DNA of 64,000 nt, from the sequence record NC_094493.1. The stretch is one strand, 5' to 3'. Source of the DNA: a phage. Every line of letters starts with the position of its first letter. Positions within the stretch are counted from its first letter, which is position 1. The position numbers were made by a program, and so were the translations under genes. The notes below the pieces were generated by a model. The model was not told where the DNA came from. It was given only the letters and a program-made list of their open reading frames with translations, and ran no database searches. Shown piece after piece: positions 1 to 2,170 of the stretch.

Positions 1-1212
1 ATAAGCGATCTGCAGCAGAAGCGAATGCCTGACTGCAAGATACCTATGAAAATCAGCAATCAGGACGACATTAAGCGATACCTGATCAGTGCTGGTTGGC
101 TTCCGACAATGTGGAGAACTAAGGATGTAACTAAAGACAGCAAGAAGAAAGCTCTACCTGATGCAGATGTTGATGCACGAGTATATGCATACATGGACGA
201 GCTTTTAGAGTCAGAGTATTGTGACCTAATTATCAACTTCTGGAACAAAACTGATGCTAAGTTTCAGACAACAGTGCACAAGTTCCGAAGCTTTCCTAAC
301 TCCGAAAGGATTAAAAAGGAAGTATTCGGGAAAATACGTAGAAAAGCTAGGGCACTTATTACTTCTCCGCAACTGAAAGATACGTTTGGACACCTATGTC
401 CGAATCTTGAAAAATTGAACGGAGAGATGGCTAAGGATATCGTCTTGTGGTTATCCTTGCGAAACCGCAGATCGGTCCTTGATCCAATCAAGGAGGATAA
501 GGTTGATACTGGTCTTCTTAATCACCCACGCTTGAAGATTGACCATAAGCTTCCTGCTAAAAGCTCCGGATTAACAAACACTTCCAGACAGAAACACAGC
601 ATTTGTGCAAACATGCCTAAACCCTCTCCTAAAGTGGTTATGGGTAAGGAGATGCGTAGCTTGTGGGGTGTTCCTCCTGGATACTTTGAGATCGGTATTG
701 ACGGGTCCAACTTAGAGCAGCTTATCGGGGCTTGGGGTGCCTTTGAGTTCGACAACGGCTTGTATTATGATGTTGTAAGTAACGGGGACGCACACCAAAA
801 CAATGCTGAGGCATATACAAAAGTAGCAGGCAGAGAGGTGTCTCGTAACGACGGTAAACCTATCACGTATGGGGTTATGTACGGGGCACAAAAAGATAAA
901 GTTGCAGATATGCTGGACATCTCTCCAGAGTTGGGACAAAGGGTAATCGATGCACTCTGGGATGCCAACCCTGGTCTTAAGGGGCGCAAAGAGGATCTGG
1001 AGAAATTCTGGGAAGCAACAGGTAAGAAGTTTATCTACTCTTTTGATGGTCATGCTATCTGGACCCGATCTAAACACTCTTTACTTAATGCATACCAACA
1101 GAATGGTGGTGCATCGCTGTGTGACTTGGTTGGGATACTTATGCACCACCAAATGGTGAAGCGTGGGTGGTACGATGAAGGTGTTCGTCGTATTATTTAT
1201 TACCATAAATAA
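1..1212 (+). CDS. DNA polymerase, family A (Pol I/T7-like), C-terminal region; 5' end lies outside the window
   Basis: Frame is open from base 1. Motif A-like IDGSNLEQL and motif B-like RxxxxGKxITYGVMYG; segment after motif B aligns by eye with T7/Klenow up to just before motif C. No HDE motif before the stop. Confidence 0.65.
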   Translation: MSDLQQKRMPDCKIPMKISNQDDIKRYLISAGWLPTMWRTKDVTKDSKKKALPDADVDARVYAYMDELLESEYCDLIINFWNKTDAKFQTTVHKFRSFPNSERIKKEVFGKIRRKARALITSPQLKDTFGHLCPNLEKLNGEMAKDIVLWLSLRNRRSVLDPIKEDKVDTGLLNHPRLKIDHKLPAKSSGLTNTSRQKHSICANMPKPSPKVVMGKEMRSLWGVPPGYFEIGIDGSNLEQLIGAWGAFEFDNGLYYDVVSNGDAHQNNAEAYTKVAGREVSRNDGKPITYGVMYGAQKDKVADMLDISPELGQRVIDALWDANPGLKGRKEDLEKFWEATGKKFIYSFDGHAIWTRSKHSLLNAYQQNGGASLCDLVGILMHHQMVKRGWYDEGVRRIIYYHK

Positions 1213-1458
1213 CATTGTGGCTTCATAGAGTAATCTATGTCGAATAACCTCTTTAACTGCGGGAAGCCTAAACCTTATGGCAAGGTAATCCGCAACGAAG
1301 CGCTCAAAAGAGCGAACGCTCAGAGGCCATTCCGAAAGGAAGTAGACCAGCAAGTGCGGTCGAAATGGGAGGATTCCTGTGGTTGCTTATCATAGGAATA
1401 TGAGATGGTCCGATCCTACGTGAAAACGTATGGCTATGCACGTAATGGTGCGGGGTAG
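1213..1458 (+). other. Structured non-coding insert between the two polymerase ORFs; candidate group I intron
   Basis: In-frame stops separate two same-frame polymerase ORFs. Contains P-like TGCGGGAAG and Q-like AATCCGCAA elements in canonical order, plus several short hairpins with GAAA/GCAA loops. Confidence 0.3.
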
Positions 1459-1479
1459 CTTAACGACCTACCTGAACTA

Positions 1480-1836
1480 TTGGATGAGTACCAACTTCAA
1501 GTGCCTGACACACCGAAGTATAAGACTGTGTACACCTTCGACACAATTGAAGAACTGGAAGCATTTAAGGCAGAGCAGGAAGCCAAACTTCATGTGTTCG
1601 ACGGTCATAAGTACAAAAAGGCACGCAAGGATGAGGACGGAAACGAAGTGGTTGACAGAGACGGAAACACGGTGTACGATCCTATCCTGAACGATAACGG
1701 AAAGCTTGAACTTATCTGGAGCCCTGTGGGTGAAATGGTGGTGCATTGCTTCTGGCAAGCTTCTAAAATGATGGGAGTCCCGTTCCAGATCACAGGTGAA
1801 TACTTGTGTGGTAGTAACTGGGGTGATTGTCACTAA
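1480..1836 (+). CDS. DNA polymerase C-terminal segment (second ORF or exon 2)
   Basis: Same frame as 1-1212. Ends GVPFQITGEYLCGSNWGDCH, resembling family-A termini (T7 ...GPNWAICH, Klenow ...GENWDQAH). Listed start is TTG; frame is open back to 1459. Confidence 0.45.
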   Translation: MDEYQLQVPDTPKYKTVYTFDTIEELEAFKAEQEAKLHVFDGHKYKKARKDEDGNEVVDRDGNTVYDPILNDNGKLELIWSPVGEMVVHCFWQASKMMGVPFQITGEYLCGSNWGDCH

Positions 1837-1885
1837 TGTAAACTATCAGCACAGGGAGGTGCTGTTGAGCAAAGAGGAGACTTTT

Positions 1886-2170
1886 ATGGTAGTAGAGCCA
1901 ACAAAAACATTTACATCCATGACCATTCCTGTTATTATGCAGGTGGAGTGTGTTCAGGTATCTCAAGTGTGGCCTGGCACCAAAATCCCAACAGGGCCTG
2001 ATTTCTTTCAGGTTGGGAAAGTGTACAATGTCTGGAAGGCACCAGATTGTTACCCTTTCATTAAAGATGAACGTGGGATGCTGTGGTATCTTGGAAATGA
2101 CTTGACACTGCACCTTGGGAATGCTATTATTGCAGTATTCAGATTTAACAAGAAGGAGACCGATCAATGA
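1886..2170 (+). CDS. hypothetical protein
   Basis: ORF with RBS aagaggaga before internal ATG at 1886; same-strand gene-dense context. Confidence 0.4.
   Translation: MVVEPTKTFTSMTIPVIMQVECVQVSQVWPGTKIPTGPDFFQVGKVYNVWKAPDCYPFIKDERGMLWYLGNDLTLHLGNAIIAVFRFNKKETDQ

What the first reader, a model, noticed from the sequence alone, without database searches (positions are those of the whole stretch)
1..1836. Family-A DNA polymerase gene interrupted by a ~250 nt structured insert with group-I-intron-like elements
The polymerase ORF stops at 1212 just where motif C is expected. A second ORF in the same frame (1459/1480-1836) ends with GSNWGDCH, which resembles the T7 DNA polymerase C-terminus (...GPNWAICH). 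The 1213-1458 insert has in-frame stops, P-like TGCGGGAAG and Q-like AATCCGCAA elements in canonical order, and several GNRA-looped hairpins. Either this is a self-splicing intron or the polymerase is made as two polypeptides. The HDE motif is also not seen in canonical form (possible NDN in the second ORF), which needs checking.
Basis: partly seen in the sequence, partly recalled or inferred. Interest (0 to 1): 0.7.

Follow-up and report, generated by a model that had tools for sequence, protein, structure and literature searches.

The report
Self-splicing intron in phage DNA polymerase
The phage's DNA polymerase gene is interrupted, in the middle of its catalytic His-Asp-Glu motif, by a 276-base group I intron with no gene of its own; this is a real but ordinary feature, already annotated in sister phages and shown to splice in a related phage.

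Summary
The finding is real and the intron reading is correct. The window comes from an rV5-like coliphage (Vequintavirus), 98.5% identical to phage V5. Rfam's group I intron model hits 1197-1432 at 64.7 bits (gathering score 50, E 4e-14), the only RNA-family hit in the 64 kb. Intron-less alleles in close relatives (pangalan, V18 and others) fix the intron at exactly 1207-1482 (276 nt).

Removing it joins ...RRIIYYH to DEYQLQV..., so motif C (T7 ...WVHDEIQV) is rebuilt across the junction.

The fold (P1-P9.2 with the P3/P7 pseudoknot) is well supported in seven homologous introns from at least four Vequintavirinae genera. 96.4% of pair cells are paired, 32 of 66 pairs change on both sides, and no shuffle out of 500 reaches that. 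Its architecture is subgroup IA2.

T7-like phages examined here carry an intron at the same codon boundary; by the published site-881 numbering, this is also the ΦI/W31 site. Relatives carry HNH or LAGLIDADG genes in P6a, while this copy has none. The CB7 homologue was shown to splice by RT-PCR. BASEL GenBank records already annotate this 276-nt intron as a join, but the rV5 RefSeq record and paper do not. Interest is low.

The parts
1..1206 (+). Exon 1 of the family-A (T7-like) DNA polymerase gene. The window starts inside the gene. The last codon, CAT 1204-1206, is the His of motif C.
   Evidence: phmmer against T7 DNA polymerase structures gives E 1.5e-13. Pfam DNA_pol_A matches residues 214-417 of the spliced product, across the junction at 402/403. 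Relatives annotate it as DNA polymerase.
1207..1482 (+). Group I intron of 276 nt with subgroup IA2 architecture and no ORF. It starts AAAUAAC and ends with the terminal G1482.
   Evidence: Rfam RF00028 at 64.7 bits, E 4e-14. It is an exact 276-nt gap against the intron-less allele of phage pangalan. Covariation supports the fold, and the MFE fold recovers all nested helices with z = -2.58.
1483..1836 (+). Exon 2 of the DNA polymerase. It starts GAT GAG (the Asp-Glu of motif C), ends ...GSNWGDCH, and has its stop at 1834-1836.
   Evidence: In-silico splicing gives one continuous ORF. Intron-less relatives match the junction peptide as a single 531-nt piece at 98.9% identity.
1203..1220 (+). 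P1: exon/intron CCAU|AA (1203-1208) pairs with the internal guide UUGUGG (1215-1220). The splice-site pair is U1206.G1217.
   Evidence: Placed by the Rfam alignment. All six pairs are invariant in the seven homologous introns. Recovered by the MFE fold.
1224..1239 (+). P2 hairpin, CAUAGA/UCUAUG, with a GUAA loop.
   Evidence: All six pairs show changes on both sides among the seven introns, and 100% of cells are paired.
1248..1253 (+). P3 5' strand (CCUCUU), which pairs with 1367-1372 (GGGAGG).
   Evidence: Three of six pairs change on both sides; 100% of cells are paired.
1258..1294 (+). The P4-P5 domain. P5 is GCC (1266-1268) with GGU (1284-1286). The P5 extension is much shorter than in the relatives.
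   Evidence: Rfam alignment and intron alignments. Covariation is present, at 85.7% paired; the lower value comes from a 1-nt MAFFT misalignment in two sequences.
1296..1318 (+). P6 (CG 1296-1297 with CG 1317-1318) and a minimal P6a hairpin (1301-1305 with 1310-1314, AAAA loop). This is where relatives carry a homing-endonuclease ORF.
   Evidence: The intron alignment shows 497-655 nt inserted here in WalterGehring, LTH01, K54rec6 and PBES02 (HNH) and in PVP-SE1 (LAGLIDADG).
1323..1329 (+). P7 5' strand (G-A-GGCCA, with A1324 bulged). It pairs with 1406-1411 (UGGUCC) and forms a pseudoknot with P3. The guanosine-binding site is inferred to be here.
   Evidence: 97.6% of cells are paired and two pairs change on both sides (GGCCA/UGGUC against GACUA/UAGUC). 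The G-binding role is inferred from general knowledge of group I introns.
1330..1361 (+). P7.1 (UUCC-GAAA-GGAA, 1330-1341), the linker G-U-A (1342-1344) and P7.2 (1345-1361). This arrangement is the subgroup IA2 signature.
   Evidence: Read from the sequence and the MFE fold. P7.2 covaries. The IA2 criterion is as quoted in PMC3428280.
1373..1399 (+). P8 hairpin.
   Evidence: Five of seven pairs change on both sides. The MFE fold extends it to 11 bp.
1417..1472 (+). Peripheral 3' hairpins: P9 (1417-1421 with 1426-1430), P9.1 (1438-1441 with 1448-1451) and P9.2 (1454-1458 with 1468-1472).
   Evidence: 100% of cells are paired in each, with 4, 1 and 3 pairs respectively changing on both sides.
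1213..1216 (+). Proposed P10 guide, CAUU, pairing with the first four bases of exon 2 (GAUG, 1483-1486).
   Evidence: Read from the sequence. GAUG is invariant in all seven intron-bearing alleles. One intron-less haplotype has GACG instead. This pairing is inferred, not tested.
1237..1395 (+). A 52-aa ORF inside the intron, annotated as hypothetical protein gp222 in the rV5 RefSeq record. It is most likely not a gene.
   Evidence: It lies entirely within conserved ribozyme helices, has no Pfam match and is not annotated in the BASEL records.
1430..1690 (+). An 86-aa ORF annotated as rV5 gp221. It runs out of frame across the 3' splice site into exon 2 and is most likely not a gene.
   Evidence: no Pfam match. 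It overlaps polymerase exon 2 in another frame.

Best explanation
Window 1207-1482 is an ORF-less, self-splicing group I intron with subgroup IA2 architecture. It interrupts the DNA polymerase gene of an rV5-like coliphage between the His and Asp codons of catalytic motif C.

Proposed mechanism:
1. The gene is transcribed as one pre-mRNA.
2. The intron folds into P1-P9.2 with the P3/P7 pseudoknot.
3. An external guanosine attacks after U1206, which is held in P1 by the U1206.G1217 wobble pair.
4. The freed exon 1 then attacks after the terminal G1482, with the first bases of exon 2 aligned by P10.
5. The ligated mRNA encodes one full-length polymerase, reading ...RRIIYYH-DEYQLQV...GSNWGDCH.

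Unspliced RNA would stop two codons into the intron (AAA TAA). That product would be a 775-aa truncated protein lacking the two catalytic carboxylates.

The intron belongs to a mobile family. Close relatives carry no intron, this ORF-less form, or a form with a homing-endonuclease gene in P6a.

Shown here: the identity, boundaries, fold and exon restoration. Inferred: the chemistry, and that this copy splices. The second inference rests on the intact core and on published RT-PCR for the CB7 homologue.
For: - Rfam RF00028 scores 64.7 bits against a gathering score of 50, E 4e-14, and is the only hit in the 64 kb even at E<=1.
- Alignment with the intron-less allele of phage pangalan leaves an exact and unambiguous 276-nt gap, CAT|...|GAT. 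Six near-identical relatives match the junction peptide as one 531-nt piece.
- The ligated protein aligns with T7 DNA polymerase through ...yyHDEyql against ...wvHDEiqv. The Pfam DNA_pol_A match spans the junction.
- Seven homologous introns (Vequintavirus, Avunavirus, Seunavirus, Certrevirus and unclassified relatives) sit at the identical site.
- Across those introns, 96.4% of 447 pair cells are standard pairs, against 34-43% in the slid controls. 32 of 66 pairs change on both sides, and 0 of 500 shuffles reach this.
- The MFE fold recovers all nested helices, z = -2.58.
- P7.1, the GUA linker and P7.2 give the IA2 signature.
- The CB7 intron carrying HNH CB7_50 is at the same YYH|DE site, and RT-PCR with Sanger sequencing showed it splices (PMC7344957).
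- BASEL GenBank records annotate the polymerase as a two-piece join. Its span is exactly 276 nt longer than the uninterrupted gene (3054 against 2778 nt).
- Exon 2 has no ATG and no Shine-Dalgarno sequence upstream of 1483.
Against: - There is no RNA or protein data for this phage itself.
- This copy has a shortened P5 extension and a different P7.1 compared with its relatives, so its splicing efficiency is not known.
- The rV5 genome paper and RefSeq record treat the two ORFs as separate genes, although without any evidence for that choice.
- Pfam DNA_pol_A scores 33.5 bits against a 34.3 cut-off on the partial product. This is marginal only because the window lacks the N-terminal part of the gene.
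Confidence: 0.93

Rival explanations
1. The polymerase is made as two separate polypeptides, 775 aa and about 117 aa, that assemble after translation. The insert is not removed from the RNA. This would resemble the Aeromonas phage Aeh1 NrdA, which is split by the mobE insertion.
For: Two ORFs are annotated separately as 'DNA polymerase' in the rV5 RefSeq record. The CB7 paper cites Aeh1 as a precedent for a split phage enzyme that is not spliced, and reports one CB7 insertion that did not splice.
Against: - The insert is a complete group I ribozyme maintained by compensatory changes across genera.
- The split would put His in one chain and Asp-Glu in the other.
- Exon 2 has only a TTG or GTG start and no ribosome-binding site.
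- The homologous CB7 intron at this exact site does splice.
Confidence: 0.03
2. The intron is a decayed relic. It lost its endonuclease gene and part of P5, and it no longer self-splices efficiently. It now depends on a host or phage protein, or splices only partially, which throttles polymerase output.
For: Compared with its relatives it lacks the P5 extension and the P6a ORF and has an altered P7.1. Protein-assisted splicing is known for some group I introns (general knowledge).
Against: - All core helices, the U.G pair and the terminal G are intact.
- The same 276-nt form is 99-100% identical in more than 20 independently isolated, viable phages.
- The other ORF-less relative, 24-2-1, scores 91 bits against Rfam.
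Confidence: 0.04
3. The insert is bypassed at the protein or translation level, by an intein, a programmed frameshift, stop-codon readthrough or ribosome hopping, rather than by RNA splicing.
For: The insert is a multiple of three (276 nt) and the two ORFs share a frame.
Against: - There are in-frame stops at 1210-1212 and 1456-1458.
- Translations of the insert have no Pfam match.
- The insert matches an RNA structure model and shows RNA-type covariation.
Confidence: 0.005

Closest known systems
The same intron as annotated in the BASEL-collection Vequintavirus genomes (for example MaxTheCat MZ501094, bas57_0074; Maffei et al. 2021, PMC8594841)
   Same: The region is 98.2% identical across window 1000-2000. 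The polymerase CDS is annotated as a two-piece join whose span exceeds the uninterrupted gene by exactly 276 nt.
   Different: Nothing substantive. The paper says only that intron boundaries were identified by comparative annotation. It does not describe this intron, its structure or its subgroup.
Group IA2 introns in gene 5 (DNA polymerase) of T7-like coliphages ΦI and W31 (Bonocora & Shub 2004, as summarised in PMC3428280). Examined here through the T7-like phages vB_Yep_15 and AV103.
   Same: - Identical insertion point between the His and Asp codons of motif C ('site 881', E. coli numbering); vB_Yep_15 and AV103 read GTG CAT|...|GAT GAG.
- Both have P7.1 and P7.2.
- Both start with AAA and use the guide CAUUGUG.
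- An HNH ORF lies within the intron of vB_Yep_15 and AV103, and ΦI and W31 are reported to encode theirs in P6a, as do the window's relatives.
   Different: - This copy has no ORF and is 276 nt rather than about 600 nt.
- blastn finds no similarity to the T7-like introns outside the core.
- The HNH of the Vequintavirus relatives is not significantly similar to the T7-like HNH (E 0.34).
- The host is a ~137-kb myovirus rather than a 39-kb podovirus.
- The T7-like copies score only 36-38 bits in Rfam.
Pectobacterium phage CB7 (Certrevirus) DNA polymerase intron carrying HNH CB7_50 (Buttimer et al. 2020, PMC7344957)
   Same: A homologous intron at the same YYH|DE site with nearly identical 5' and 3' ends. 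Splicing was shown by RT-PCR, with Sanger sequencing of the products.
   Different: - It is 687 nt with an HNH ORF in P6a and a longer P5 extension.
- CB7 also has a second polymerase intron upstream and a free-standing HNH gene downstream, both absent from the window.
[quoted passage not shown]
   Same: [quoted passage not shown]
   Different: They occupy a different insertion site (674, E. coli numbering, in the fingers subdomain) and encode nicking HNH enzymes.
Aeromonas phage Aeh1 nrdA split by mobE
   Same: An essential phage enzyme gene is interrupted by a mobile insertion.
   Different: There the insertion is not spliced and two polypeptides assemble. Here the insert is an intact ribozyme.

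Membership tests
Group I intron (Rfam RF00028) | Covariance-model score at or above the curated gathering score | tested here: met
   64.7 bits against 50, E 4e-14, with the full model 1-253 matched.
Group I intron (Rfam RF00028) | The 5' exon ends in U, which forms a U.G wobble in P1 with an internal guide sequence | tested here: met
   U1206.G1217 lies within P1 (1203-1208 with 1215-1220). The pair is invariant in the seven homologues.
Group I intron (Rfam RF00028) | The intron ends in G (omega-G) | tested here: met
   G1482 is the last intron base. The boundary is unambiguous against the intron-less allele. All seven homologues end ...UUG or ...GUG.
Group I intron (Rfam RF00028) | A conserved P3-P9 core including the P3/P7 pseudoknot, supported by covariation | tested here: met
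   96.4% of cells are paired, 32 of 66 pairs change on both sides, 0 of 500 shuffles reach this, and slid controls give 34-43%.
Group I intron (Rfam RF00028) | Removal restores the host gene's reading frame and conserved sequence | tested here: met
   The ligated ORF equals the uninterrupted polymerase of relatives and restores motif C, HDE.
Group I intron (Rfam RF00028) | Guanosine-dependent self-splicing in vitro or splicing in vivo | not testable with these tools
   The only evidence is indirect: RT-PCR on the homologous CB7 intron at the same site.
Subgroup IA2 | P7.1 and P7.2 lie between P7 and P3' and are linked by G-U-A (criterion as quoted in PMC3428280) | tested here: met
   P7.1 is 1330-1341, GUA is 1342-1344 and P7.2 is 1345-1361.
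ΦI/W31-type polymerase intron | Insertion at site 881 (E. coli numbering), between the His and Asp of motif C | tested here: met
   The window reads CAT|GAT. The T7-like phages vB_Yep_15 and AV103 read GTG CAT|...|GAT GAG. The site is as stated.
ΦI/W31-type polymerase intron | An HNH homing-endonuclease ORF in P6a | tested here: not met
   The window's P6a is a 14-nt hairpin and the intron has no ORF of 60 aa or more. Relatives carry HNH or LAGLIDADG genes there.
ΦI/W31-type polymerase intron | Sequence homology to the T7-like introns beyond the shared core | tested here: inconclusive
   blastn in 'distant' mode with the window intron found no T7-like phage. The ΦI and W31 sequences themselves are not in the collections.
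Mobile (homing) intron | Presence/absence polymorphism at one site among close relatives | tested here: met
   Among about 116 Vequintavirus records there are roughly 58 with no intron, 25 with the ORF-less form and 33 with an ORF-bearing form. These counts are approximate, derived.
Mobile (homing) intron | Encodes its own homing endonuclease | tested here: not met
   No ORF is present. Any mobility would need an endonuclease acting in trans or general recombination.
Family-A DNA polymerase (host gene) | Homology to Pol I/T7 gp5 with motif C HDE and the C-terminal ...CH | tested here: met
   T7 gp5 matches at E 1.5e-13 with HDE aligned. The C-termini are GSNWGDCH and GPNWAICH. Pfam DNA_pol_A scores 33.5 bits, just under its 34.3 cut-off, on this partial protein.

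The most novel reading that the evidence does not exclude
The ORF-less intron may still be actively mobile, spread by homing endonucleases supplied in trans. This would be 'collaborative homing', as proposed for T4-like phages and cyanophages.

Possible sources of the enzyme are the HNH-bearing intron alleles of co-infecting relatives, or the free-standing NUMOD4-HNH gene found immediately downstream of the polymerase gene in some relatives.

Observations that fit this reading:
- The intron shows 0-1 differences in 276 nt among five alleles, while their flanking exons differ by 1-4.6%.
- The site has three allelic states within one genus.
- Some intron-less alleles carry a block of four synonymous changes in the first 12 nt of exon 2, which could mark an endonuclease-resistant target.
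Probability: 0.3. Interest if true: 0.35.

Novelty: already known. Interest (0 to 1): 0.17.

Why it matters
The main consequence is for annotation. The rV5 RefSeq record (NC_011041), the reference genome of the genus, and the 2013 genome paper describe a 775-aa polymerase, a second small 'DNA polymerase' and two hypothetical proteins. The evidence here indicates one 276-nt intron and one full-length enzyme. Many derived records copy that error.

Biologically it adds a well-resolved example to three known patterns:
- A family-A polymerase's motif C is a recurrent target for mobile group I introns, in both T7-like podoviruses and rV5-like myoviruses.
- The intron can outlive its endonuclease gene.
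- One site can hold three allelic states within a single genus.

None of this is new in kind.

Tried and rejected
- **Other introns or RNAs in the window.** The Rfam scan at E<=1 found only this hit, and ARAGORN found no tRNAs.
- **Coding potential inside the intron.** The two ORFs annotated in rV5 (gp222, gp221) have no Pfam match and overlap ribozyme helices or exon 2 out of frame. I rejected them as genes.
- **The HNH genes near phita32 and 241Ecol014PP.** I first suspected these were intron-borne. Alignment shows they are free-standing, inserted after the polymerase stop codon, and that the intron in those phages is the same ORF-less form.
- **Bonocora & Shub 2004.** The paper is not held under its DOI or its PMC id. 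I used the summary in PMC3428280 and tested the insertion site directly on the T7-like phages vB_Yep_15 and AV103.
- **MAFFT alignment of P4/P5 and P7.1.** Two sequences are off by one base, which lowers those helices to 86-89% paired. I did not re-curate the alignment, so the reported support is conservative.
- **Intein, frameshift or readthrough.** Rejected because of the in-frame stop codons and the RNA-type covariation.
Full report
**What is in the sequence.**
The window opens inside a long ORF that ends ...GVRRIIYYHK* with its stop at 1210-1212. A second ORF in the same frame (TTG 1480 to 1836) reads MDEYQLQV...GSNWGDCH. Between them lie in-frame stops at 1210-1212 and 1456-1458.

**Where the window comes from.**
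It is from an rV5-like coliphage (Vequintavirus). Positions 1-2400 are 98.5% identical to Escherichia phage V5/rV5, and 135 phage records match.

**Is the insert a group I intron?**
Yes. Rfam RF00028 matches 1197-1432 on the + strand at 64.7 bits, against a gathering score of 50, with E 4e-14 and the whole model aligned. It is the only RNA-family hit in the 64 kb, even at E<=1.

**Exact boundaries.**
A peptide spanning the proposed junction matches several near-identical phages (V18, pangalan, bov22_2, rV5_ev156, HdK5, ECP2303) as one uninterrupted 531-nt piece at 97-99% identity. These phages are natural intron-less alleles.
- Aligning pangalan with the window leaves a single 276-nt gap...ATT TAT TAC CAT | [1207-1482] | GAT GAG TAC CAA....
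- The boundary cannot be slid in either direction, because T1206 differs from G1482 and A1207 differs from G1483.
- Exon 1 therefore ends in U, and the intron ends in G. Both are canonical group I features.

**What splicing produces.**
The ligated ORF reads ...RRIIYYH|DEYQLQVPD...GSNWGDCH.
- phmmer against solved structures aligns it to T7 DNA polymerase (E 1.5e-13), with yyHDEyql opposite wvHDEiqv, which is motif C.
- The Pfam DNA_pol_A match (residues 214-417) crosses the junction at 402/403.
- The His-Asp-Glu motif is therefore canonical but split by the intron. His is the last codon of exon 1, and Asp-Glu are the first two codons of exon 2.
- Unspliced RNA would terminate after AAA TAA. 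This gives the 775-aa 'polymerase' reported for rV5, which lacks the motif C carboxylates.

**Structure and covariation.**
Homologous introns sit at exactly the same YYH|DE codon boundary in six other phages. CB7 is a seventh.

| Phage | Genus | Intron length | ORF in intron |
|---|---|---|---|
| WalterGehring | Vequintavirus | 842 nt | HNH |
| 24-2-1 | Avunavirus | 317 nt | none (Rfam 91.2 bits) |
| LTH01 | unclassified | 772 nt | HNH |
| PVP-SE1 | Seunavirus | 919 nt | LAGLIDADG |
| K54_rec6 | unclassified | 771 nt | HNH |
| PBES02 | Certrevirus | 772 nt | HNH |

I cut out the P6a inserts and aligned the window with these six (alignment A1). I then counted pairs for a structure written from the window sequence: P1, P2, P3, P4, P5, P6, P7 (as a pseudoknot), P7.1, P7.2, P8, P9, P9.1 and P9.2.
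- 96.4% of 447 cells are standard pairs, against 34-43% when partners are slid by 1-3 columns.
- 32 of 66 pairs carry changes on both sides, against 1-5 in the slid controls.
- 0 of 500 shuffles reach the observed pairing, double-change counts or covariation score.
- P2 changes on both sides at all six pairs. P8 does so at five of seven pairs and P9 at four of five.
- P7 switches between GGCCA/UGGUC and GACUA/UAGUC.
- P1, including U1206.G1217, is invariant, as expected given the conserved exon.
- A plain MFE fold of 1199-1490 independently recovers every nested helix (z = -2.58).
- P7.1 (GAAA loop), the G-U-A linker and P7.2 together form the subgroup IA2 signature quoted in PMC3428280.
- A four-base P10 (GAUG 1483-1486 with CAUU 1213-1216) can be drawn, but it is inferred only.

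**What is particular about this copy.**
- In the relatives, an endonuclease ORF sits in the P6a loop. WalterGehring and PBES02 carry HNH genes that are 55% identical, and PVP-SE1 carries a LAGLIDADG gene.
- The window has a 14-nt hairpin there instead, a much shorter P5 extension and a longer P8.
- Its 5' part (1207-1271) and 3' part (1341-1482) are about 94-95% identical to the WalterGehring intron, but the centre is not alignable by blastn. It is therefore a mosaic or minimised ORF-less derivative.
- Among roughly 116 Vequintavirus records, the site is empty in about 58, holds this ORF-less form in about 25 (22 of them at >=99% identity) and holds an ORF-bearing form in about 33. These counts are approximate, derived.
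- The intron shows 0-1 differences in 276 nt among five ORF-less alleles, while the flanking exons differ by 1-4.6% (for example 34 of 1206 and 16 of 350). This fits recent horizontal spread better than vertical descent alone.

**Exon flanks.**
All intron-bearing Vequintavirus alleles begin exon 2 with GAT GAG TAC CAA.

Intron-less alleles fall into two haplotypes:
- the same sequence (JohannBauhin, Murica);
- GAC GAA TAT CAG, which has four synonymous changes in 12 nt (pangalan, V18, ECP32, inoa).

Three explanations are possible and remain untested: a co-conversion tract, an endonuclease-resistant target, or selection for P10 pairing.

**Rival: two polypeptides.**
This would divide the catalytic triad between two chains. 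Exon 2 has only a TTG or GTG start and no Shine-Dalgarno sequence. An intact ribozyme maintained by compensatory changes across genera is hard to explain if it is never used. In addition, the CB7 intron carrying HNH CB7_50 lies at this same site with near-identical ends, and RT-PCR plus Sanger sequencing showed it splices (PMC7344957). I put the two-polypeptide reading at about 3%.

**Comparison with what is known.**
- PMC3428280 states that the IA2 introns of the T7-like coliphages ΦI and W31 (Bonocora & Shub 2004) lie at polymerase site 881 (E. coli numbering) and carry an HNH gene in P6a. From my own knowledge, His881-Asp882-Glu883 is motif C of E. coli Pol I.
- I tested this directly. Two T7-like phages in the collection, vB_Yep_15 and AV103, have an intron of about 600 nt at GTG CAT|...|GAT GAG. 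It scores 36-38 bits in Rfam and carries an HNH_3 ORF.
- The window's intron thus occupies the same site and has the same architecture as these. There is no blastn similarity outside the core, and the endonuclease lineage differs (E 0.34).
- The SPO1, Bastille and Pf-WMP3 introns use a different site, 674.

**Is it already known?**
- The rV5 paper describes a 775-aa polymerase and reports introns only in the terminase gene.
- The RefSeq record lists gp223 and gp220 as two 'DNA polymerase' CDSs, with hypothetical proteins gp222 and gp221 between them.
- The BASEL-collection records, however, annotate the polymerase as a two-piece join. For MaxTheCat, whose region is 98.2% identical to the window, the CDS spans 3054 nt against 2778 nt for the uninterrupted pangalan gene. 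The difference is exactly 276 nt.
- The element is therefore already recognised in public annotation, belongs to a classic kind, and has experimental support through a homologue.

**Verdict.**
The boundaries are corrected to 1207-1482, and motif C is explained. Novelty: already known. Interest: low. The practical value is correcting the reference annotation. There is also a modest open question about how an ORF-less intron stays so uniform and widespread.

Noticed in passing
window 1237-1395 and 1430-1690; L001 3737-3895 and 3930-4190: The rV5 RefSeq record annotates two hypothetical proteins (gp222, gp221) inside or across the intron, and lists the polymerase as two separate CDSs (gp223, gp220). 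The 2013 paper's '775-aa polymerase' is the product truncated at the stop codon inside the intron.
   Followed up: yes
window 1483-1494; L006, L016-L020: Intron-less Vequintavirus alleles have two haplotypes at the first four codons of exon 2. One is GAT GAG TAC CAA, the same as in intron-bearing alleles. The other is GAC GAA TAT CAG, with four synonymous differences in 12 nt right next to the insertion site. This could be a co-conversion tract or an endonuclease-resistant target.
   Followed up: partly
window 1207-1482 against 1-1206 and 1483-1836; L001, L003, L004, L005: The ORF-less intron has 0-1 differences among five alleles, while their flanking exons differ by 1-4.6%. This suggests recent horizontal spread of an intron that has no endonuclease gene of its own.
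   Followed up: partly
L004 3357-4004; L003 4326-4973; L010 3339-4001; L015 2951-3436 (absent at window ~1837-1885): A free-standing HNH homing-endonuclease gene sits immediately after the polymerase stop codon in phages of several genera (a NUMOD4-HNH form in phita32 and K54_rec6, plain HNH_3 in CB7; the 241Ecol014PP copy is annotated HNH and was not scanned). The phita32 and K54_rec6 copies are 52% identical. The window lacks it.
   Followed up: partly
L003 283-3681 (Escherichia phage 241Ecol014PP): Exon 1 of this relative's polymerase is 969 nt longer, in frame, than in the window. It has a weak Hint-domain hit (E 8e-4, below the cut-off) at residues 672-706, so it may contain an intein.
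   Followed up: partly
L010 1186-1899; L015 920-1632; probably L007 617-1335: Some relatives (K54_rec6, CB7, apparently 24-2-1) have a second ORF-containing interruption further upstream in the polymerase gene. It lies near motif B; the next exon starts MYGAQ..., equivalent to window ~880. The window is uninterrupted there.
   Followed up: no
window 1483-1836: After motif C the polymerase has 115 residues before its C-terminus, against 49 in T7 gp5. That is an extra segment of about 65 aa (roughly DTPKYK...NDNGKLE), conserved in rV5-like phages and of unknown role.
   Followed up: no
one search hits H101, H102 and H123: [quoted passage not shown] The intron family has therefore colonised other genes and hosts.
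   Followed up: no
one search hits MG0656xx: Sixteen GenBank records labelled 'Campylobacter phage' (host C. jejuni) are about 97% identical to this E. coli Vequintavirus region. The host labels look doubtful.
   Followed up: no
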